NCBI RefSeq assembly: GCF_009914755.1 | Contig: NC_060926.1 | Reading direction: 5' to 3' (one strand) | DNA from: the human T2T-CHM13v2.0 reference genome, Homo sapiens | DNA: 64,000 bases | Shown here: positions 661 to 22,119 of the stretch, in pieces | Layout: each line of letters begins with the position of its first letter | How positions within the stretch are numbered: the first letter of the stretch is position 1 | Program-made: the position numbers and the translations under genes | The notes under the pieces: model-generated | What the model saw: only the letters and a program-made list of their open reading frames with translations | Databases searched by the model: none | Told to the model about the DNA's origin: nothing

Positions 661-990
<330 letters not shown>

Positions 991-1322
991 TAATTGTATA
1001 TTCTGATTCGGGGGCGTACATTTACAAAGGGTAACTGAAACAAGTAAGTCATTTTCGTATGATTTAGAATTTAGAACAAATGAAAACTGTATAGATTCCC
1101 CTTTAAGGGAATTTGCCATTGTTCTACATATTTTAAGATAAACTTCTGTTGCATTTCTGCACAGAATAGAGGCTAGACAGAGCACCCTTATGTGCAGAAA
1201 TGAATAGAATGTACTTGTGTAATATAACGTACTTGTGTGTATACTTGTTCCATATACTCAGGCATTTACCTTGGAAATGGCCTACACTGAGCCACCGCTT
1301 GTGAATAATATTGTCTCTATAG

Positions 1323-6024: not shown

Positions 6025-6650
6025 CACCAAACACATCGCTGAAAAAATTAAGTCAGCTCAGCACGAGTTGAAATTGACTACATTAATTTCTTTCCACCTA
6101 GAATCAACAGGATGTTTATTTCCTATGCTGATTCTGGAGGAGTTAACCTCCTGCAAAAAAGGCATCTTGTCCCTACATCTTCTCTTCTGACTTTGGCTAC
6201 ATCTCATAGTAAGTTCAGAGTAGTTCATGATAAATTGAAAATATAATGGTCATTGCAGAAAATGATTGATGTTGTAACTGTCCACCCAAGTAAGAAGTGT
6301 ATCTGCCTTTCCATCTTTTGGTTTTCATTTGGGCATGTGCTATTACCAGAAACAACAAACTTATATTTAAAATACCCTTCATTTGACACAGTTTTTAATG
6401 AGTGATTTAATTTCCTCTGTATTTGTATGTTTAGAAGACTGCCTAAAACATGAGCACTGTACTTCATAAAGGAAACTGCGTATGCAGATTCAGTATTGTG
6501 TATCTTTGGACAATTAGATGGACATTTAAAATGGAACTTCTTTATCTGACAGGATCAGCTACAATGCCCTGTGTTAAATTGTTTAAAAGTTTCCCTTTTC
6601 TTTTTTGCCAATAAAGTTGTAAATAAAGACCATCATACATTAAAATCCAA
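6025..6650 (+). other. ZC3H15: ZC3H15 3'UTR
   Basis: Repeat-free sequence between the stop codon and the clustered poly(A) signals; exact 3' end inferred. Confidence 0.85.
6610..6644 (+). terminator. Polyadenylation signal cluster
   Basis: AATAAA 6610-6615, AATAAA 6622-6627, ATTAAA 6639-6644; T-rich tracts upstream (6590-6606) and downstream (6660-6676). Confidence 0.85.
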
Positions 6651-7312
6651 ATATGGGCCTTTTTTTAAGTTTTTCTATGAAAAATTTAACATTTCTAGCT
6701 TGAGAATTTTAAATACCTGTTATAATATCACATAGGCATGTTTTCTTAATATTTACTACAGAAGCATCTAGAGTACTTGACAGTACTACAATGAGTTTAA
6801 TAACACAAATACTAAGCTTCCAAAAAGAGACTTTAGGAGATGTTATATAAAAGAGTAACTTCTGAATTGATACAACATCAACCAAATTAAATATCACCTG
6901 CAGTTGAATCAAGTAATGCTTAAGAATTGTTTGTTGAGATTCATGGTGTTAAAATAGTACATACTACTGTAAGTATAAACAAATTCACCAGAAAACTTTG
7001 GGCTGAGGGTCTTTGGCACTAAGAGCCCCTGAAAAATTAGGGTGATAATACATTTAAAATGGACACAATTTGCTAATGACATATTTAGTACTAGCTACAC
7101 CTTTTTTATTGTTATGTTTTGTATTTTCAAATAATATGTTGCTTTTGTTATTTGCGAATATAAATAGATTTTAAGGCAACTAAGATAACAGCACTAAAAT
7201 GTCAGGTGAGCTGGACCCTAATCTCATTTCTGCCTCCGATAAATTATATGATTTTTAAATCTCTGAATCTTAGTTTCTTTATTTGCGTATTAAGGTTAAG
7301 ACTCAATGATCT

Positions 7313-7621
<309 letters not shown>

Positions 7622-8049
7622 TCACTAACGTACTTCTAAGTTGTAAAGCCTAAGAAATTTATGATTGCAAATCTTGTCAAATGATAACATCAAAGTTGAT
7701 AAAGAAATTGACTTCCTAGCTGTTTAGTACTAGTACTATACAACTGACAGTTTTTAAATATAGAACATCAGGAGCCAAGTTTATTTCCAGCTACAATGAA
7801 AGTGTACTTAAATACTTCCTATATATACTTTATATATTTTTTTAAAAAGCTTGAGTTTTAAAGTTTATTCATGAAAGATTTGTTCCATTTTTTTGTGAAA
7901 GTTTAAATGGTACTTACTGCATTATTTAATAATGAAACATTTTCAGAATAGTCTAAAGAGCTTAAACCTTTTTTCTATTTTGAAGTCATCTAAAACATTT
8001 TCTAAGAATTTATCTTATAAATAAAAGTTAGAATTCATTTACTTCAGAC

Positions 8050-8267
8050 CAAGCTTTTCCAACCTGAGGCCCGTGTGCCACATACCACCCAGAATGACTT
8101 TGAATGTGGCCCAACACAAATTTGTAAACTTAATTAAAACATGAGATATTTTTTTTTTGCAATTTTTTTTTTAATCTCAGCTATCGCTAGTGTTAGTATA
8201 TTTTATGTGTGGCCCAAGACAGTTCTTCCAGTGTGGCCCAGGGAAGTCAAAAGATTGGACACCCTTG
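8050..8267 (-). mobile_element. MER30 (hAT-Charlie non-autonomous element)
   Basis: Matches recalled MER30 consensus end to end; degenerate 8-bp flanks CTTCAGAC/CTTTCGAC. Confidence 0.85.
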
Positions 8268-8787
8268 CTTTCGACCTTAAGTTTGGGGGCTTTTTTTTTT
8301 ATCCTGTATATAAAGTAGGGCCATATAAACAAAAGGATGCTGAAAGACTTTAGGTGTGTTTAAAACAGTATTATCTTACAGCAAATAATGTGATCTCAAA
8401 AGTCAAGGTGTTTTTTAGTAAGTGTATAGATATAAAGCAAAATGGTTCAATGTGGAGGTAATTTTTTATACCTGCAAGTCTTTAATTACTGGGTGGCCTT
8501 CCTCTACCTTGCCCTGAAATTTCTTCCATTATTAAGACAATACGTGCACAGAGAATGCAAAAGTATTTTAATCTGAGACAATCAAAGTACAAAAATAAAT
8601 CTGCTTCTAAAATTATAGTACATTTCAGAGGTTTAAAGAAATAATTTTTGTATTCTCAGTATAGTTACTCAGTATTGGTACAGTTAATCTGAAATTGGCT
8701 CTACTTTTCCAAACCCATTTATATATAAATAACCATTACAGCCTATAGTGATCCCATGTTTGCCAGAATCTTTCTAAATTTAAAATA

Positions 8788-9116
8788 CAGTCATGTGTCA
8801 CGTAACGAAGTTTCAGTTGCCTCTGAACTACATATACAAAGGGGTCCCATAAGATTATAGTACCTGTATTTTTACCTTACCTTTTCTATGTTTAGATGCA
8901 CAAATACCATTGTGTCATAATTGCCTGCAGTATTCAGTACAGTAACATGCTGTACAGGTTTGCAGCCTAGGAAAATAGGTTATTTCATATATTTCATATA
9001 GTGGTAGATGGTAGGCTTTACCATCTAGGTTTATGTAACTATGATGTTCACACAACTGAAATCACCTAACAATGTGTTTCTCAGAACATATCCCTTAGTT
9101 AAGCGGTGCATGACTG
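8788..9116 (+). mobile_element. Tigger3a (Golem/MER7) MITE
   Basis: Terminal inverted repeats CAGTCATG...CATGACTG, preceded by TA; internal sequence fits Tigger3a. Confidence 0.88.
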
Positions 9117-10864
9117 AAGTTACATTGTGAATTTTACCTTATTTTTGCACAGATGGTATATCAGATGCTGTAAGCCCATCATACTGATATAAATGGACTG
9201 ATATAAATTGTATAATGGTACAATATATTTCTAATGTGTATTATTCAGCGCTGACCGTTAAGTGATTCAGAATGTGATAGCAGTGAGATTACAGGATCAG
9301 ATCATTGAGAAAGCATTGCATCTATCAGGTTTTAACACATAAAGTGGACAAAGGGAACTTACGGCAGACGTTCATACAGATAATTAGTAGAATTATTATA
9401 TGAGTTCTCTTCTTGTTCTGGGTAGTTAACTTTGTATAAAGAACTTTCAGAATCACAGAAGAGATTTCTACCTAAGTATAAGACTGTGATGCTGATACAT
9501 ATATATATCCACATACAATATTATGTTAATGCTTCTAGGTACTTAGCACACCATTCATATCATATGAACTCAGGTATATGTTGTAATAAATTCGTTTCAA
9601 GGCATACCAGATGAGAGGATAAACTCCCAAAATCTTGTGTTTTGGGTTTTTGTCTCTATTTTTAAGCATATATCTTACTGATGATAGGTGTTCTCTGAGA
9701 ATAAAGATAACACTTTACTTTTCAATTAGTAGAAATTACTAGAAGCTGAACTCTAACTAGAATCTGACAACATCTGCAAAATTTTATAGTACTTTAGAAA
9801 CAAACCCAAATGAAATAATAGTACAAAATGTATTTTCACATTTTCTCCTTTTAATGTTGTATTTTTTGATTGTTACTCTTTGTTAATGTCGAAAGAAAAG
9901 GAGATTCGTTTTCATTAATTTCATTAATATTGTGTGCTTTGCCACATGTACAGCACTTGTATTGGGCACTATAGATTGCATGAACTATATGACAGTTTAA
10001 GACATGGTCTCAGCCTGATTTGAGTATACATGTTAGAATGAGAAAATCACAACTATATAAGGCAGAACTAGTAAGTTCCTGACCATTAACAAAGATGCCT
10101 TTTCAATTAGACTTTCCAGTATTTTACATTCAGTTTCATTGAGTGAGTTTTTTTTTTAATAAAGATTTTCTTTGTGAAGATAATATGATGGACATTTTTC
10201 AGACAAAGGTGGTTATTTTGTACTCAGTCCCCAGAGGCATACATTTCTGTTACAGCTGATCTGGTTTTCAAACAGATACATGTAAAATTAACTAGTCCTT
10301 ATGGGACTTAAGCATCAGGACTTAGTTTCCTGATTCCTATGTAGTTAGCCTTATATTATAAACCAAAAGACAATGAAATACTAACTACTTTTTTTTGCCA
10401 ATTAATCTCTAGGGTGTTTTCAAAGGACCGTATATCAGCTTCATTCCAAATGTGTTTCATTTCACCTGTGACTCCTTTAAACTATATTTTTATCTAAGTC
10501 TTAGGAAACTGTATATTTCAGTGACAAAGATCATCAATATGACTTAAGAATTTTTTTATGTTACCATATTTAACTGATGATTACGTATTTTGAATTACCT
10601 TGTTTTTACAGCATGTATGGAAATATATCAAAGAATTTATAATTAAAAGTATTTAAAACCTCTCAAGTTAGAAGTATAGTATATAATATAGTAATTATAT
10701 GGATCACTTCATGATTGTGCATTATTGTATATATTGGACATATTTCACTTAAAAGAGAAATGTAATGCATGAGAAGTAGAATCCAATGTGTTAGGAATCT
10801 TCATTCCTGAATTTTTACACGGTGCTGAATAGGTACTGAAAGTAAAAATTTTAGTAACTAAATC

Positions 10865-15993: not shown

Positions 15994-16303
15994 ATGTCTC
16001 AATGTTAATATTGAGCCTTCTGACCCATATGTATATTCATGTATTTAGGTCTTTTAAAATCACTTCAGCAATAAATGGTTTTTTAAATTTCAGTTCACAA
16101 TTGTTTGTTGTTAGTATATAGAAATACAGCTGACTTTTGCATTTTAATTTTATCATGCTACCTTGCTAAACTCACTTATTCTAGTAGCTTTTTTGTTGAT
16201 TTCACAACATTGTCTTCTACATAGACAAACTCCTCTGTAAATGAAGATGATTTTCTTTCTTTCCAATCTGAATACATTTTATTTCTTTGTCTTATGTTAT
16301 TGC

Positions 16304-16425
16304 ATGAGTCAGCGAACTTATAGACAGTTTTATTCTTTATGCACTGTCTATACCTGCTTTCATGCTACAATGGCAGAGTTGTGTAGTTGCCACAGAGACT
16401 GACAGAAAAAGTTGGTCAAATTCTG
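16304..16425 (+). mobile_element. MER58A remnant (hAT)
   Basis: 'gctttcatgctacaatggcagagttgtgtagttgccacagagac...acagaaaaagtt' matches recalled MER58A. Confidence 0.65.
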
Positions 16426-16850
16426 CCGTACTGTGCTGGTGATGAGAGCAAACATTCTTGCCTTGTTTGTGATCTTAAGTGGAAAGCATTCAGTCTTGCA
16501 TGATTAAGTAATGACGTTAGCTGTATATCATAAATGCACTGAGGAAGTTTTTTTTCTGTTCCTAGTTTACTGAGACTTAGTGGGGGGTTGCTTTGTATTT
16601 TGTTTTAATCAAGAATGGATTTTGGATTTTGTCAAATCTTTTTCTCAATCTACTGAGATGATCAAATGGCTTTTTTAAAAACTTATTAATATGGTGAAAA
16701 CAGCCTGAATTCCTAGGATAAACCCCACTTGAGCCTGATACATTTTCTTTTTATATATTGTTGGATTTGATTTGATAAAACTTAGCGTACTTGTTTCTAT
16801 GTTCATAATTGATGAATTAATCTGTAGTTTTTGTATCAGGATAATGCTGT

Positions 16851-16936
16851 TGAAACCAGCTCAATAGTCCCATAGACAGTTATTTTTGATTAAACATAGA
16901 AATTGACCCTTCTGCTGTTAAAGCTTGAAATTTATA
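16851..16936 (+). mobile_element. 5' fragment of an ERV1-class LTR (family uncertain)
   Basis: TGAAACCAGCTCAATAGTCCCATAGACAG... resembles the start of a MER4-group LTR. Confidence 0.45.
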
Positions 16937-16958
16937 TAGGTTGGTGCAAAAGTAATTG
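16937..16958 (+). mobile_element. MADE1/Hsmar1 terminal inverted repeat fragment
   Basis: TAGGTTGGTGCAAAAGTAATTG. Confidence 0.75.
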
Positions 16959-18337
16959 TCAACTTTTGATCAACCCAAAGAACCAGCTTATGGTTTCACT
17001 GATTTTTCTCTATAAATTTGCTGTTTCACTGATTTCCCCTCTGATCTTTATTTCTTTTCTTCTGCTTACATGGGGTTTAATTTGCTTTTGTTCCTTAACC
17101 TAGCAGTTGAGGTTATTGATTGGATCCTTTTTCTAAAATAGGCATTGAGTACTACAGAACCCCCAGCTAATTCCTCACAGCTAGATCCTCATGTTTACCC
17201 AGGTAGCTTATGTTTTTAATCAACATTACTCTACTTTTGACAGAAATAGCTTTGCTAATATTGAGAAACTTAAGGTTTAAGACAACCTGAAAAGAATAAT
17301 CTGATTTTTCTAATAAGATTCTTTTTTAATGGCCAACATGAATGATACTTTAAGCATTTGAGTAGAAATTCTTTATATATGAATGGAGTATGAAATATTA
17401 AAATCTCACTAAAATAACAGATGTAATATAAACGTCAAGAACTGTAGGAGAAATTAATAAAGAGGTCTATTGAATTGCATAAAGAGTGTTTTTGTTGTAA
17501 TACATGTTTCCTTTGACTTCACTGTTTAAAGTGATTCCCCTAAATATGTTGCTTTTATGTTGAAGCCACAGTAACTACTAACAAATCATTTAAAACCCTA
17601 TAGAACTTTATAGGAGCTGAAATATTCAGTGGATGACCTCAGAAAAGATACAGATATATCATTATGTCTCATTTTTATTTTCAGGTGTTCAGATTAAAAC
17701 TATTGCTTTAAATTGGATATTAGAGCTCAAGAAATATTGAGACACGTTTGACCACTTTTGTTTCCTTGGTTCATTTACTTGTCCACATACTGAAGACTAC
17801 TGTAAAAACAGGGAAAACATTTTTAAATGACAACTTGTTCAAAATCTAAACTTTAAAAACTAAGCTCTAGAAATTCAAGGAAAATAATAAGATGACATTT
17901 TGTTTTGCCTCAAGCCCTGAACACATCATTGGTATAATCATTTAGCTAATGTCAAACAACATAGTGTCTGGCAAGATTTTAGCTAGAGTCAACTATCAAC
18001 TCTCCACAGCTTATCACTGAAATAACAAGCTTCGTGTGACCATATTAAAAATTATCAGTTTTACATTTGAAAGGCCCAGTGCCAACCTGGAAAAAATTGC
18101 TTGCATTGATGAGTAATAAATTCTACATTTTGCATATTCTCACAACTGCATGAATTCATTTCACAATGTTGGCAAATAATCTGAATTCTTGGTGGCACGG
18201 GTCCTCCGTATGCTGAGCGCCGGTCCCCTGGGCCCACTTTTCTTTCTCTATACTTTGTGTCTCTTTCTTTTCTCAGTCTCTCGTCCCACCCGACTGGAAA
18301 CACCCACAGGTGTGGAGGGGCAGGCCACCCCTTCATC

Positions 18338-18355
18338 TGGTGCCCAACGTGGGTG
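18338..18355 (+). other. Primer binding site (tRNA-Lys)
   Basis: TGGTGCCCAACGTGGGTG directly after the U5 end ...CCCCTTCA-TC. Confidence 0.9.
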
Positions 18356-18459
18356 CTTTTCTCTAGGTTGAAGGTATGCTCGAGCATGATCATTGAGGAC
18401 AAGTCGACGAGATTCCCGAGTACGTCTACAGTCAGCCTTGTGACATTTGAAGTTCTACA

Positions 18460-18867
18460 ATGAACCCGTCGGAGATGCAAAGAAAAGCACCTCCACGGAG
18501 ACAGAGACACCGCAGTCGAGCACCATCGGCTCACAAGATGAACAGAATGGTGATGTCAGAAGAACAGATGAAGTTGCCATCCACCAAGAAGGCGGAGCCG
18601 CCGACATGGGCACAATTAAAGAAGCTGACACAGTTAGCTAAAAAAAAGCCTAGAGAACACAAAGGTGACACAAACTCCAGAGAACATGCTGCTTGCAGCT
18701 TTGAAGACTGTATCAACAGTGTCTGCAGGTGTACCCAGCAGCTCCGAAGAGAGCGACCATCGAGAACGAGCCATGATGACAACGGTGGTTTTGTCGAAAA
18801 GAAGGGGGAAATGTGGGGAAAAGAAAGAGATATCAGACTGTTACTGTGTCTATGTAGAAAGAAGTAA
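18460..18867 (+). CDS. 135-aa Rec-derived chimeric ORF (translation unproven)
   Basis: [22 protein letters not shown]...[12 protein letters not shown] is Rec/Env signal peptide residues ~1-60; frameshift at the A8 tract 18640-18647. Confidence 0.55.
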
Positions 18868-19654
18868 ACATAAGAGACTCCATTTTGTTCTGTACCAAGT
18901 AAAATTTTGTCTTGAGATGCTGTTAATCTGTAACCCTACCCCCAACCCTGTGCTCGCAGAAACATGTGCTGTGTCAAGATTTAATGGATTTAGGGCTGTG
19001 CAGGATGTGCTTTGTTAAACAAATGCTTGAAGGCAGTATGCTCGTTAAAAGTCATCACCACTCCCTAATCTCAAGTACCCAGGGACACAAAACACAGTGG
19101 AAGGCCGAAGGGACCTCTGCCTAGGAAAGCCAGGTATTGTCCAAGGTTTCTCTCCATGTGATAGTCTGAAATATGGCCTCCTGGGAAGGAAAAGACCTGA
19201 CCGTCCCCAAGCCCAACACCCGTAAAGGGTCTGTGCTGAGGAGGATTAGTAAAAGAGGAAGACATCTGTCTCCTGCTCATCCCCTGGGCAATGGAATGTC
19301 TCAGTGTAAAACCCGATTGTATATTCCATCTACTGAGATAGGAGAAAACCGCCTTAGGGCTGGAGGTGAGACATGCTGGCAGCAATATTGCTCTTTAATG
19401 CACCGAGATGTTTATGTATGTGCGTATCAAAGCACAGCACCTTTTTCTTAACCTTGTTTATGACACAGAGACATTTGTTCACTTGTTTTCCTGCTGACCC
19501 TGTCCCCACTATTACCCTACTGTCCTGCCACATCCCCCTCTCCGAGATGGTCGAGATAATGATCAATAAATACTGAGGGAACTCAGAGACCGGTGCCGGT
19601 GCGGGTCCTCCCTATGCTGAGCACCGGTCCCCTGGGCCCACTTTTCTTTCTCTA
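18812..19654 (+). promoter_or_regulatory. HML-2 3' LTR U3-R (promoter/enhancer; Rec-responsive element region)
   Basis: Starts TGTGGGGAAAAG after the polypurine tract 18796-18811; AATAAA 19565-19570; U5 absent. Confidence 0.9.
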
Positions 19655-20201
19655 TTAAAAAAAAGAATCTGATTTCTTAACTGTAGTATACATACATATT
19701 TCTCTTCCAAGCAGGTATTAAAAACACATTGTCTGCTTCTCAGAGAGTTATAGTTGAGTTACTGCACTATGTCTTTTTGACAGTAGTTTTAAGGTTTGGA
19801 ACGTATTGGAGTTGCTTGAAAAGATTCATTATACTGCTTTATTAATGTAACCCCAGTGGGCTGAACCATTTGTATTCAGATACATGGGGAAATATGTAGT
19901 CTACTTTAAAACTGTTTTTCCACTGAAAAAAAAGAATTTTGTTAAATGAGGGGAAAAAAATAGGTAAATAATTGCAAAGTCAGTGTTTTCTGTTGGACTG
20001 TAGTAAATTATGGATGTTACTGGTACTTACTGAAGCATCAAAGTTATTTTAAAAAGAGAGACAAGCACAGAAGGCATGCCAGTACTCCTACTGCTTAATT
20101 TCAACTTCCCGGACAGTTAAGTGAAGTTTTGTTTTGGATGTGCTTCCATATGGCTTTGTTTTCTGAGCAAAAGTATATGAATTTGCCTTATACCATTTTA
20201 A

Positions 20202-20485
20202 TTTTTTTTTCTTTAGATGGAGTCTTGCTCTGTCACCCAGGCTGGAGTGCAGTGGCGGAGTCTTCGGCTCACTGCAACCTCTGCCTCCTGGGTTCAAGCG
20301 ATTCTCGTTCCTCAGCCTTCCAAGTAGCTGGGACTACAGGCATGCGGCCCCACTTGACTAATTTTTGCATTTTTAGTAAAGATGGGGTTTCGCCACGTTG
20401 GCCAGGCTAGTCTCGAACTCCTGGCCTCAAGTGATCTGCCTGCCTCAGCTTCCCAAAGTGCTGGCATGAGCCACCGAGCCTGGCC
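20202..20485 (-). mobile_element. Alu (old S/J)
   Basis: Dimeric Alu in reverse complement. Confidence 0.92.
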
Positions 20486-22119
20486 TGAATTTTTTAAATG
20501 CACTTTTTTCTCATTCACAGCAGCCATTAAATTCAAAATACTTTTATAGATCAATTCCATATAGTAATTTTAAGGTGTACTTTGCCTTTCCTGGGTGAGA
20601 GTTACATCTCTATATAAATGAAACAGTAAGTCATGGGCTTTCTCGTGTGAACACTAAGTGACTTGGCAATGTACCGTGTTGTTGTGAGTACATTGATAAT
20701 ACCGAGATAAATTCTGTTTTTCAGTCTTCATGTCATCACTGATGAGGGAGAACCCTCAGCTTGACAGTCTAAGGTAAGTTATGTGGGAAGCGATAATATT
20801 ATTACAGATGTGCTAATGTACAGGAAAGTGACAGAAAATGTAGACACTTGAGTGGCCCACATCAATTACTGCTGTATTTACCTTCTTGTATCAATCCATC
20901 TAGTCTTGAACTAAGAATACATTTATAACATGACCCTCAGGAGTTCACATTCACAAGAAAAATGGTGATGAAAATGTCATGAAATGATAAGCAGGAAGCA
21001 CACTGTGAAGTTGCCCTTTGGTATCCCAGCCAGCTCCTTTCAAACACAGCATTCCATGTGGGCCGTTGGTAATTTTCACTGGGCTCAAGATGATTAAGTA
21101 ATTATAGAACTGTCTTTAACCTCATTTGGTATTTACACTTTGAGGGTTTTTCTAAAGAAGTGTTCCTTTCCCATCTTTGATTATTCTCTATCCCTTGGCA
21201 ATCTCATTCACTTTCATGATTTAAATAATTGCTTCCATATGAACAACTGTATCTTCAGCCTCACATGTCCAGTAAGCTACTTACTGCACAGCTCAACGTG
21301 AATATCCTGCCAGTTCTTCACATTCCATACTAAAGTTGTTTTCTTTCCTAAATCTTTTCCTCCTTTTTCTTTCTTTTTTTCCCCCTGTTATTAAGATTTT
21401 ATTATCCAGCCAAGTGGACTAAAAAATATCTATTGGTTATTTTGCCAAACCAAGATTTCTCCTACATTCATCCTCTTTTCTATTCACATGGCCACTATCC
21501 TGTATTACTCAGGCTCTCATCTCCTTTCATAATTAGTCACATGTAATTTATCTTCCAAACTGAAACATTTTTTGAGTGTGGAAGGGACACTATGGAGAGT
21601 GAAGAAAACTCTTTTAGTACTTACATTAGACAACTGGTATACATTGGAACTGTCCTCTGCAAACTTGGGCATATGTTCACTGTACTTGTAATTAATTTAA
21701 CCTGTTTCCTTTCCTTCCCTTCCTGTAACCGATCCATCCAAAGCATTGCTGGATTTATCTTCTTAAGCATAGTTTTAATCATGAGGTCTCCCACTTCATA
21801 ATTCTTTAATGGCTCTAAATTGCCTACCAAATACAATCTAAATATTTAGGCCTAATCTTCAAACTCTCCTCTGGTGGCCCCAGCTTCCCTCTCCTACTTT
21901 CTTATTTCTTTAGTCAAGTAACTCACAATGTAATGCTTAACTTTTTTGATCCTGAGTTACCTCATTAGTAAGGTAGGGATTAAAATGTCTCTTCCTCAGT
22001 TGTGAAGCTGTAATGGGGTATTATATGTAAAGAAAGTAGGCTGGTATATAAGTACTTAGCAGCAAGTACTTAGTACATAGGCACTGAGGTATTAGTAGCT
22101 ATTATCACATACACTGTAG

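What the first reader, a model, noticed from the sequence alone, without database searches (positions are those of the whole stretch)
18174..19678. Processed retrocopy of the fully spliced HERV-K(HML-2) rec mRNA, mobilised by L1 rather than by integrase
Seen: the element starts in R with no 5' U3 and ends in R plus a short A tail with no 3' U5. The leader donor is joined to the env acceptor (CAGCCTTGTG|ACATTTGAAG, 18442/3), and the rec donor is joined to the last-exon acceptor (TCAACAGTG|TCTGCAGG, 18721/2). A 17-bp TSD flanks it (AAATAATCTGAATTCTT 18174-18190; AAAGAATCTGATTTCTT 19662-19678). Established: HML-2 integrase makes 5-6 bp TSDs with complete LTRs, whereas long A-rich TSDs plus poly(A) mark L1 target-primed reverse transcription. 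Inference: a viral accessory mRNA was captured in the germline as an intronless host locus. I recall that L1-made rec retrocopies have been reported, possibly including this locus, so novelty needs a literature check. It also confounds rec RT-PCR, because genomic DNA yields the 'spliced' amplicon.
Basis: partly seen in the sequence, partly recalled or inferred. Interest (0 to 1): 0.85.

Follow-up and report, generated by a model that had tools for sequence, protein, structure and literature searches.

The report
Known HERV-K rec retrocopy ERVK-30

Summary
Window 18191-19664 runs R-U5-PBS-leader | rec exon 1 | env tail-U3-R-A8. It has no 5' U3 and no 3' U5, and it is flanked by a 13-17-nt target-site duplication.

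Both internal joints fall on the GT...AG intron borders of a full provirus. In whole-genome searches with joint-spanning queries, only this locus and one sibling at chr5:93.94 Mb cross the joints. The other 38 of 40 scored matches in each search break at the joint.

The interpretation, L1 retrotransposition of a rec mRNA, is supported. It is not new.
- Schmitt et al. 2013 (PMC3590776, section 16 and Fig. 4 legend) describe this 2q32.1 locus with the same duplication, 8-nt A tail and 408-bp ORF. They report it present in chimpanzee to gibbon and absent in rhesus and marmoset.
- Schmitt et al. 2015 (PMC4351823, sections 7-8) name it ERVK-30, describe the 5q15 sibling ERVK-31, and deal with the genomic-DNA amplicon problem.

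My small additions:
- The odd bases at joint 1 are lineage variation plus a C-to-T change at a CpG site.
- Both copies belong to one old LTR clade, nearest a chr1:36.35 Mb fragment.
- Both start within a few bases of each other, about 27-31 nt after the AATAAA box.

The parts
18174..18190 (+). 5' copy of the target-site duplication. The core is 18178-18190; the A-rich start is ambiguous.
   Evidence: family D5 (15/17 match to 19662-19678). Chance rate 1.5e-5 per placement. The same 13-nt core is printed in PMC3590776 section 16.
18191..18252 (+). 5' R region; the first base of the retrocopied mRNA is at 18191
   Evidence: Repeated at the 3' end (D1, 52/54). Aligns from reference LTR nt 824 with 8 more bases upstream. 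No U3 upstream.
18253..18335 (+). U5
   Evidence: Aligns to reference LTR up to its last base, nt 968.
18336..18442 (+). Primer-binding site (about 18338-18355) and untranslated leader, up to the leader splice donor
   Evidence: Aligns to reference provirus nt about 969-1073 plus 3 nt. GT follows in 11 of 11 proviruses. That the primer-binding site is of the tRNA-Lys type is recalled, not tested.
18443..18721 (+). rec exon 1, running from the env splice acceptor to the rec splice donor; start codon at 18460
   Evidence: Aligns to reference provirus nt 6433-6711. AG lies before it and GT after it in the provirus.
18722..18811 (+). rec exon 2 coding part, which is the 3' end of env plus the polypurine tract
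   Evidence: Aligns from reference nt 8410, directly after AG.
18812..19591 (+). U3 of the 3' LTR, complete at its 5' end, with internal deletions relative to the chr5 sibling
   Evidence: Aligns from reference LTR nt 1. Gaps of 28, 7 and 19 nt against the chr5 copy.
19565..19570 (+). AATAAA polyadenylation signal, about 90 nt before the tail and about 27 nt before the start of R
   Evidence: the only AATAAA in the element..
19592..19656 (+). 3' R region, ending at the poly(A) site
   Evidence: D1..
19657..19664 (+). A8 poly(A) tail remnant
   Evidence: '8-nt-long poly-A stretch' in PMC3590776 section 16.
19662..19678 (+). 3' copy of the target-site duplication. The core is 19666-19678; its first three A's overlap the tail.
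   Evidence: D5..
18460..18867 (+). Open frame of 135 codons plus stop. Only roughly the first 60 residues are Rec-like; after that the frame has shifted.
   Evidence: Pfam PF15695 HERV-K_REC, E 3.7e-24, residues 20-63 on profile positions 2-45 of 87. Described as a 408-bp ORF in PMC3590776.

Best explanation
Window 18191-19664 is ERVK-30 (2q32.1). It is a processed retrocopy of a fully (doubly) spliced rec mRNA from an old type-2 HERV-K(HML-2) provirus.

Shown here:
- The RNA began in the LTR about 27-31 nt downstream of the AATAAA box.
- It was spliced from the leader donor to the env acceptor and from the rec donor to the last-exon acceptor.
- It was polyadenylated about 90 nt after AATAAA.
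- The DNA copy carries a poly(A) remnant and a 13-17-nt target-site duplication. It lacks 5' U3 and 3' U5.

Inferred: the LINE-1 endonuclease/reverse transcriptase copied it into a nicked A/T-rich site by target-primed reverse transcription. Published cross-species comparisons put this in the ape lineage after the split from Old World monkeys and before the gibbon split.

The copy is a decayed pseudogene. Its Rec frame is shifted after about residue 61, and it has no viral promoter at its 5' end. The published transcription of the locus must therefore come from a flanking promoter that remains unidentified.
For: Joints on GT/AG borders:
-, against the 7p22.1 provirus.
- GT follows the leader exon end in 11 of 11 proviruses.
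- AG precedes the env acceptor in 10 of 10 rows, and GTAAGT follows the rec donor in 8 of 10.
- Whole-genome searches with 120-nt joint-spanning queries found 2 of 40 scored matches crossing each joint, this locus and chr5:93.94 Mb. The other 38 of 40 stop at the joint.

Ends, tail and duplication:
- No HML-2 homology in 3 kb of either flank, and the alignment stops at LTR nt 878 of 968, followed by T and A8.
- The 15/17 duplication is unique in the window at that spacing, with a background rate of 1.5e-5.

Independent sibling:
- The chr5 copy has the same two joints but its own perfect 15-nt duplication, preceded by T's, and a longer A tail.
- Its flanks are unrelated to this locus apart from one inverted 303-nt interspersed repeat.

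Rec identity and age:
- Pfam HERV-K_REC, E 3.7e-24.
- The terminal branch is 0.04 changes per site in the LTR tree.
- Identity to the chr5 sibling is 1342 of 1458 aligned bases, K2P 0.085.

Print:
- PMC3590776 section 16, read in full.
- PMC4351823, passages and section 8.
Against: - The bases just before the duplication (GC, then AAATAA) are only a loose match to the L1 endonuclease preference as I recall it (TT/AAAA). The chr5 sibling fits it well.
- The A tail is short (8 nt) and the duplication has 1-2 mismatches. Both are expected for an old insertion but weaken each hallmark taken alone.
- L1 authorship is inferred from these hallmarks. No tool here can show which reverse transcriptase acted.
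- I could not inspect any non-human primate genome, so the empty site rests on the published statement.
- The genome searches scored only 40 of 137, 258, 1247 and 2356 first-look candidates, so counts of copies are lower bounds.
Confidence: 0.96

Rival explanations
1. An ordinary integrase-made provirus that later lost gag-pro-pol, most of env, its 5' U3 and its 3' U5 through genomic deletions on the spot.
For: HML-2 loci with large internal deletions exist. The chr1:36.35 Mb fragment lacks reference nt 6817-8054, with borders that are not splice sites.
Against: This would need four separate deletions landing exactly on two GT/AG intron borders, on the start of R and on the poly(A) site. It would also need an A8 run to arise at the poly(A) site and a 13-17-nt direct repeat to flank the remnant. 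The same four borders recur independently at chr5.
Confidence: 0.01
2. A spliced viral RNA that was packaged, reverse-transcribed by the viral enzyme and inserted by integrase, as Schmitt et al. proposed for ERVK-17 at 10q24.2.
For: ERVK-17 lacks reference nt 7039-8409, and the 3' border of that gap falls exactly on the rec acceptor (PMC3590776 section 16). Retroviral re-insertion of partly spliced RNA is therefore a real option in this group.
Against: Retroviral reverse transcription rebuilds complete U3-R-U5 LTRs on both sides and leaves no poly(A). Here 5' U3 and 3' U5 are absent and a poly(A) remnant is present. The duplication is 13-17 nt, not the 5-6 bp known for HML-2 integrase (established knowledge, not tested here).
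Confidence: 0.01
3. A secondary copy: either a segmental duplication of the chr5 (ERVK-31) copy or a retrocopy of its transcript, rather than an independent capture of viral mRNA.
For: - The two copies share both joints and nearly the same 5' end.
- Both have the same unusual T before the poly(A) tail.
- Both have a 6-nt U5 deletion.
Against: - The flanks are unrelated and the duplications differ, so this is not a segmental duplication.
- A transcript of a promoter-less retrocopy should carry foreign 5' flank. Neither copy does: both begin inside natural LTR sequence.
- The 6-nt deletion also occurs in the unrelated chr3:104.41 Mb provirus, so it recurs independently.
- The LTR tree does not resolve the two copies as sisters.
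Confidence: 0.02

Closest known systems
[quoted passage not shown] 2013, Genome Biol Evol 5:307, PMC3590776; named in Schmitt et al. 2015, Mob DNA 6:4, PMC4351823)
   Same: It is the same locus. The paper prints the same 13-nt duplication pair and the same 8-nt poly(A). It places the poly(A) signal about 90 bp upstream and reports the 408-bp ORF whose first 60 residues are Rec-like, with L1 as the mechanism. The hg18 coordinates chr2:187093879-187095344 in Table 1 of the 2015 paper span 1466 bp, against 1474 bp here.
   Different: Nothing of substance.
- By my alignment, about 145 nt of the 5' LTR are present and the 3' LTR lacks about 90 nt. The 2013 text gives about 90 and about 150, which looks like the two figures swapped.
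[quoted passage not shown] Nine of 11 proviral leaders have G, not A, at exon position -3. The chr5 copy reads ...GCG where this copy reads ...GTG, which fits a C-to-T change at a CpG site.
ERVK-31, the retrotransposed rec mRNA at 5q15 (Schmitt et al. 2015, PMC4351823 section 7)
   Same: It has the same two joints, the same R-to-R-plus-poly(A) layout and the same age bracket. It belongs to the same old LTR clade. It is 1342 of 1458 aligned bases identical to this copy.
   Different: - It lies on a different chromosome, with its own duplication and a longer tail.
- It has a stop at codon 20 (seen in the alignment and stated in the paper).
- It retains 28-, 7- and 19-nt U3 stretches that are missing here.
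- The paper mentions an approximately 250-bp 5' truncation. In my alignment its 5' end lies within about 4 nt of ERVK-30's.
HERV-W processed pseudogenes made by LINE-1 (Pavlicek et al. 2002, Genome Res 12:391; seen only as a citation in PMC3590776, otherwise recalled)
   Same: They are retroviral RNA copied by L1, with an R-U5...U3-R-poly(A) layout and long duplications.
   Different: As I recall, the HERV-W copies are mostly of unspliced genomic RNA and are numerous. Here the template was the doubly spliced accessory mRNA, and only two copies were found.

Membership tests
L1-mediated processed retrocopy (processed pseudogene) | Introns removed exactly at the parent gene's splice sites | tested here: met
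   both joints sit on GT...AG borders; 38 of 40 genomic matches break at each joint.
L1-mediated processed retrocopy (processed pseudogene) | Copy ends in a poly(A) tail at the mRNA's polyadenylation site, downstream of AATAAA | tested here: met
   A8 at 19657-19664, 92 nt after the AATAAA at 19565. The chr5 sibling ends at the same base with a longer tail.
L1-mediated processed retrocopy (processed pseudogene) | Flanking target-site duplication of roughly 7-20 bp | tested here: met
   15/17 match (12/13 in the core), with a chance rate of 1.5e-5 per placement.
L1-mediated processed retrocopy (processed pseudogene) | Insertion at an L1 endonuclease-type site (TT/AAAA on the sense strand; consensus recalled) | tested here: inconclusive
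   This locus reads GC|AAATAA, a loose match. The chr5 sibling reads TTT|AAAAATT, a good match.
L1-mediated processed retrocopy (processed pseudogene) | Empty orthologous site with a single target copy in an outgroup | not testable with these tools
   No primate genomes are held. PMC3590776 section 16 and the Fig. [quoted passage not shown]
HERV-K(HML-2) rec mRNA (type 2 provirus transcript) | Exon structure: R-U5-leader to the leader donor, env acceptor to the rec donor, last acceptor to U3-R | tested here: met
   Aligns to reference provirus nt 824-1076, 6433-6711 and 8410-9382.
HERV-K(HML-2) rec mRNA (type 2 provirus transcript) | Encodes the Rec protein | tested here: not met
   Pfam HERV-K_REC covers only profile positions 2-45 of 87. 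The frame shifts at an A-run near 18640-18650, and the rest of the 135-codon frame is not Rec. The locus derives from rec mRNA but is not a Rec gene.
Integrase-made HML-2 provirus | Complete U3-R-U5 LTR at both ends, with a 5-6-bp duplication | tested here: not met
   No 5' U3, no 3' U5 and a 13-17-nt duplication.

The most novel reading that the evidence does not exclude
ERVK-30 and ERVK-31 may both be complete cap-to-tail records of rec mRNAs from one old HML-2 lineage. Its nearest surviving relative among the loci I examined is the 5'-truncated fragment at chr1:36.35 Mb, probably the one listed as 1p34.3.

If so, the two copies independently record that this lineage started transcription about 27-31 nt downstream of the AATAAATA box, so the box would act as a TATA-like element in the 5' LTR and as the poly(A) signal in the 3' LTR. 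They would also record an R region of only about 64 nt. This favours the downstream start seen by RNA-seq ('position 826') over the 'canonical' position 793 quoted in PMC4379556.

I found no statement of a common source lineage, or of this use of the two copies, in the passages and sections I read of PMC3590776 and PMC4351823. Both papers returned 0 occurrences of '1p34'.
Probability: 0.5. Interest if true: 0.25.

Novelty: already known. Interest (0 to 1): 0.1.

Why it matters
The locus shows that L1 can capture a retroviral accessory mRNA in the germline. It is also a practical trap: genomic DNA gives the same 'spliced' rec amplicon as cDNA.

Both points have been in print since 2013 and 2015, together with the name ERVK-30, the age bracket and evidence of transcription in many tissues. 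The remaining value of this check is confirmation in the T2T assembly and a few refinements:
- The joints are clean once lineage variation is taken into account.
- The two known copies share an old LTR clade.
- The two copies have nearly the same 5' end, which bears modestly on where old HML-2 LTRs started transcription.

Tried and rejected
- translated from 18461, one base out of frame, and was useless. One search gave the right frame.
- One search failed on a search-term syntax rule. I re-asked with other terms.
- Fuchs et al. 2011 (the start-site paper) is not held, so the start-site comparison rests on passages of PMC4379556 only. Numbering offsets of about 3 nt between LTRs make it approximate.
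- Rfam search of 16000-22000 gave 0 matches.
- I tested whether the chr1:36.35 Mb fragment is the actual source.
  - For: it alone shares several derived bases in rec exons 1 and 2 with both retrocopies.
  - Against: its 3' LTR reads ...TATA at the poly(A) site where both retrocopies read ...TATT. It has lost its 5' half. The LTR tree leaves a five-way polytomy.
  - Result: a relative, but not shown to be the source.
- I first took the 6-nt U5 deletion shared by the two copies as proof of one source. One search shows the same deletion in the unrelated chr3:104.41 Mb provirus, so I dropped that argument.
- I did not name the LTR subfamily (5A, 5B or Hs) because no reference consensus is available here. 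The element's LTR is 79-83% identical to the two youngest-type LTRs compared, 7p22.1 and 10q24.2. It is 86-90% identical to its nearest relatives.
- A search for other splice forms, such as the leader joined directly to the last exon, was not made. It would have needed a joined query.
Full report
**What is there**

I read window 17900-19950. The element occupies 18191-19664. From 5' to 3' it holds the following parts.
- R (18191-18252) and U5 (to 18335).
- A primer-binding site and leader (to 18442).
- The first rec exon (18443-18721, ATG at 18460).
- The last 90 nt of env with the polypurine tract (18722-18811).
- A U3 that starts at LTR base 1 (18812-19591), with AATAAA at 19565.
- A second R (19592-19656).
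- A8 (19657-19664).

The repeat finder returned the R repeat (18198-18251 versus 19602-19655, 52/54). It also returned the flanking direct repeat 18174-18190 versus 19662-19678 (15/17).

**Is it more than chance?**

At the same 1488-nt spacing, only this 1 of 62,495 positions in the window reaches 15/17. Over 200 other spacings the rate was 190 of 12,497,300, or 1.5e-5. Even allowing a hundred alternative placements around the ends, the repeat is not a chance match.

**Joints**

I fetched the 7p22.1 provirus from the window's own genome and aligned the element to it. With the provirus numbered from LTR base 1, the element matches nt 824-1073 (plus 3 nt), 6433-6711 and 8410-9382.
- The provirus reads GT directly after the first and second blocks.
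- It reads AG directly before the second and third blocks.

The three bases before joint 1 differ from this reference. [quoted passage not shown] In an alignment of 11 proviral leaders, GT follows the exon end in 11 of 11. Nine of the 11 carry G rather than A at exon position -3. The chr5 sibling reads ...GCG where this copy reads ...GTG. So the joint is clean, and the difference is lineage variation plus a C-to-T change at a CpG site.

At the rec donor, GTAAGT follows in 8 of 10 proviral rows; one row has GTGTCT and one has lost the region. AG precedes the env acceptor in 10 of 10.

**Genome-wide view**

A search of the whole assembly with the element found one other full-length match, chr5:93940754-93942291 on the minus strand. 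It scored 87% identity with gaps counted. That search scored 40 of 2356 first-look candidates. All other matches were LTRs (starting at query 622), proviral 3' ends (starting at query 531, which is 18721) or separate exon pieces.

I then searched with two 120-nt queries, one centred on each joint.
- Each gave 40 scored matches.
- Only this locus and the chr5 locus cross the joint.
- The other 38 of 40 begin or end within 3 nt of it (which scored 40 of 137 and 40 of 258 candidates).

These counts are lower bounds because only the best candidates are scored.

**The sibling**

The chr5 copy has a perfect 15-nt duplication of its own, preceded by T's, and a tail of about 14 A. Its flanks are unrelated to those of this locus apart from one inverted 303-nt interspersed repeat. 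So the two are independent insertions.

The two copies are identical at 1342 of 1458 aligned bases (K2P 0.085). Of the 116 mismatches, 39 are in CpG context.

In a maximum-likelihood tree of 15 LTR sequences, five rows form one clade with 100/100 support, unresolved inside. They are the two copies and the LTRs at chr1:36.35 Mb, chr11:62.36 Mb and chr19:20.42 Mb. The terminal branch of this copy is 0.04 changes per site.

Using substitution rates I recall (about 1.3-2.2e-9 per site per year), that branch gives very roughly 20-30 million years. This agrees with the published bracket.

**Relatives and source**

Subramanian et al. 2011 list a 1p34.3 fragment, 11q12.3 and 19p12a among old HML-2 loci. 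Their main text has no occurrence of 2q32 or 5q15 (PMC3228705, passages). That the T2T places I examined are these named loci is my inference from chromosome and position.

The chr1 fragment covers only reference nt 6070-6816 and 8055-9472. It alone shares several derived bases in rec exons 1 and 2 with both retrocopies. However, it reads A where both retrocopies read T just before the tail. It is therefore a close relative and not a demonstrated source.

A 6-nt U5 deletion shared by the two copies also occurs in the unrelated chr3:104.41 Mb provirus, so it is weak evidence for a common source.

**Coding state**

The longest frame is 135 codons, at 18460-18867. Pfam's HERV-K_REC model matches residues 20-63 to profile positions 2-45 of 87 (E 3.7e-24). 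An A-run with neighbouring substitutions near 18640-18650 shifts the frame. The same region is an A-run of varying length in all five members of the clade. The chr5 copy has a stop at codon 20.

**Ends of the RNA**

Both copies begin inside natural LTR sequence and within about 4 nt of each other. In this copy's 3' LTR that point lies 27 nt after the first A of AATAAA. Both copies end at the same base, 92 nt after the AATAAA.

Bhardwaj et al. 2015 state that the canonical start is believed to be position 793. They also report that RNA-seq showed starts mainly at position 826 in one LTR (PMC4379556, passages). The fossil 5' ends lie near the latter. LTR numberings differ by a few bases, so the comparison is approximate.

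**Rivals**

- Deletion of a provirus on the spot would need four borders to fall on functional RNA landmarks, and this would have to happen twice independently.
- Integrase-mediated re-insertion would have rebuilt full LTRs and left no tail.
- Duplication of the chr5 copy, or retrocopying of its transcript, is contradicted by the unrelated flanks and by the absence of foreign 5' sequence.

**Literature**

A full-text search for HML-2, rec and 'processed pseudogene' gave 93 papers, of which 20 were listed.

Schmitt et al. 2013 (PMC3590776) devote a section and Fig. 4 to this exact locus. I read section 16 in full and other passages. They report:
- the duplication pair, the 8-nt poly(A) and the 408-bp ORF;
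- L1 as the mechanism;
- presence in chimpanzee, gorilla, orangutan and gibbon, and absence in rhesus and marmoset;
- transcription in a melanocyte line.

Schmitt et al. 2015 (PMC4351823; passages and section 8 in full) add four points:
- the 5q15 sibling;
- the names ERVK-30 and ERVK-31;
- transcripts in 15 and 13 of the tissues examined;
- an explicit control for the genomic-DNA amplicon problem.

A 2018 paper again treats chr5q15_K-31 as a retrotransposed rec mRNA (PMC6091006, passages). A search for 'ERVK-30' returns only the 2015 paper. Supplementary files were not opened.

**Verdict**

The finding is already known. The gene table supplied with the finding has no row for this locus, which may be why it looked unannotated.

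Noticed in passing
L014 (G000 chr1:36351800-36361700), minus strand: An HML-2 fragment holding only reference nt 6070-6816 and 8055-9472, with an internal gap whose borders are not splice sites and no 5' half. It is the closest relative found to both rec retrocopies in rec exons 1 and 2. It is probably the '1p34.3' entry of Subramanian et al. 2011.
   Followed up: partly
L015 (G000 chr10:100703700-100713600), minus strand: ERVK-17 at 10q24.2 lacks reference nt 7039-8409. The 3' border of the gap falls exactly on the rec acceptor, as published. Just upstream of its 5' end lies an inverted 140-nt piece of LTR end (reference nt 823-968).
   Followed up: partly
L020 (G000 chr1:149755461-149758521): In this provirus, homology to rec exon 1 stops after 108 nt. 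It is followed by what looks like an inverted LTR start and then Alu-like sequence, which suggests a rearranged or interrupted env start.
   Followed up: no
One search matches such as G000 chrX:120955366, chr12:102050323, chr2:242572406, chr2:232023121, chr15:54343747: Many dispersed loci match only from the base after the rec acceptor (query 61 onward) into the env tail. They may be SVA SINE-R modules, which I recall derive from the HML-2 env 3' end plus LTR. I did not check this.
   Followed up: no
window 20202-20487: An interspersed repeat of about 300 nt (80% identical to one near the chr5 copy, in inverted orientation). It overlaps the first exon of lncRNA LOC107985784 (20429-20773), about 0.8 kb downstream of the retrocopy's intact 3' U3-R.
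   Followed up: no
PMC3590776 section 16 versus window 18191-18335 and 19592-19656: The paper's figures ('approximately 90 bp' of 5' LTR present; 3' LTR lacking 'approximately 150 bp') appear swapped relative to my alignment, which shows about 145 nt present and about 90 nt lacking.
   Followed up: yes
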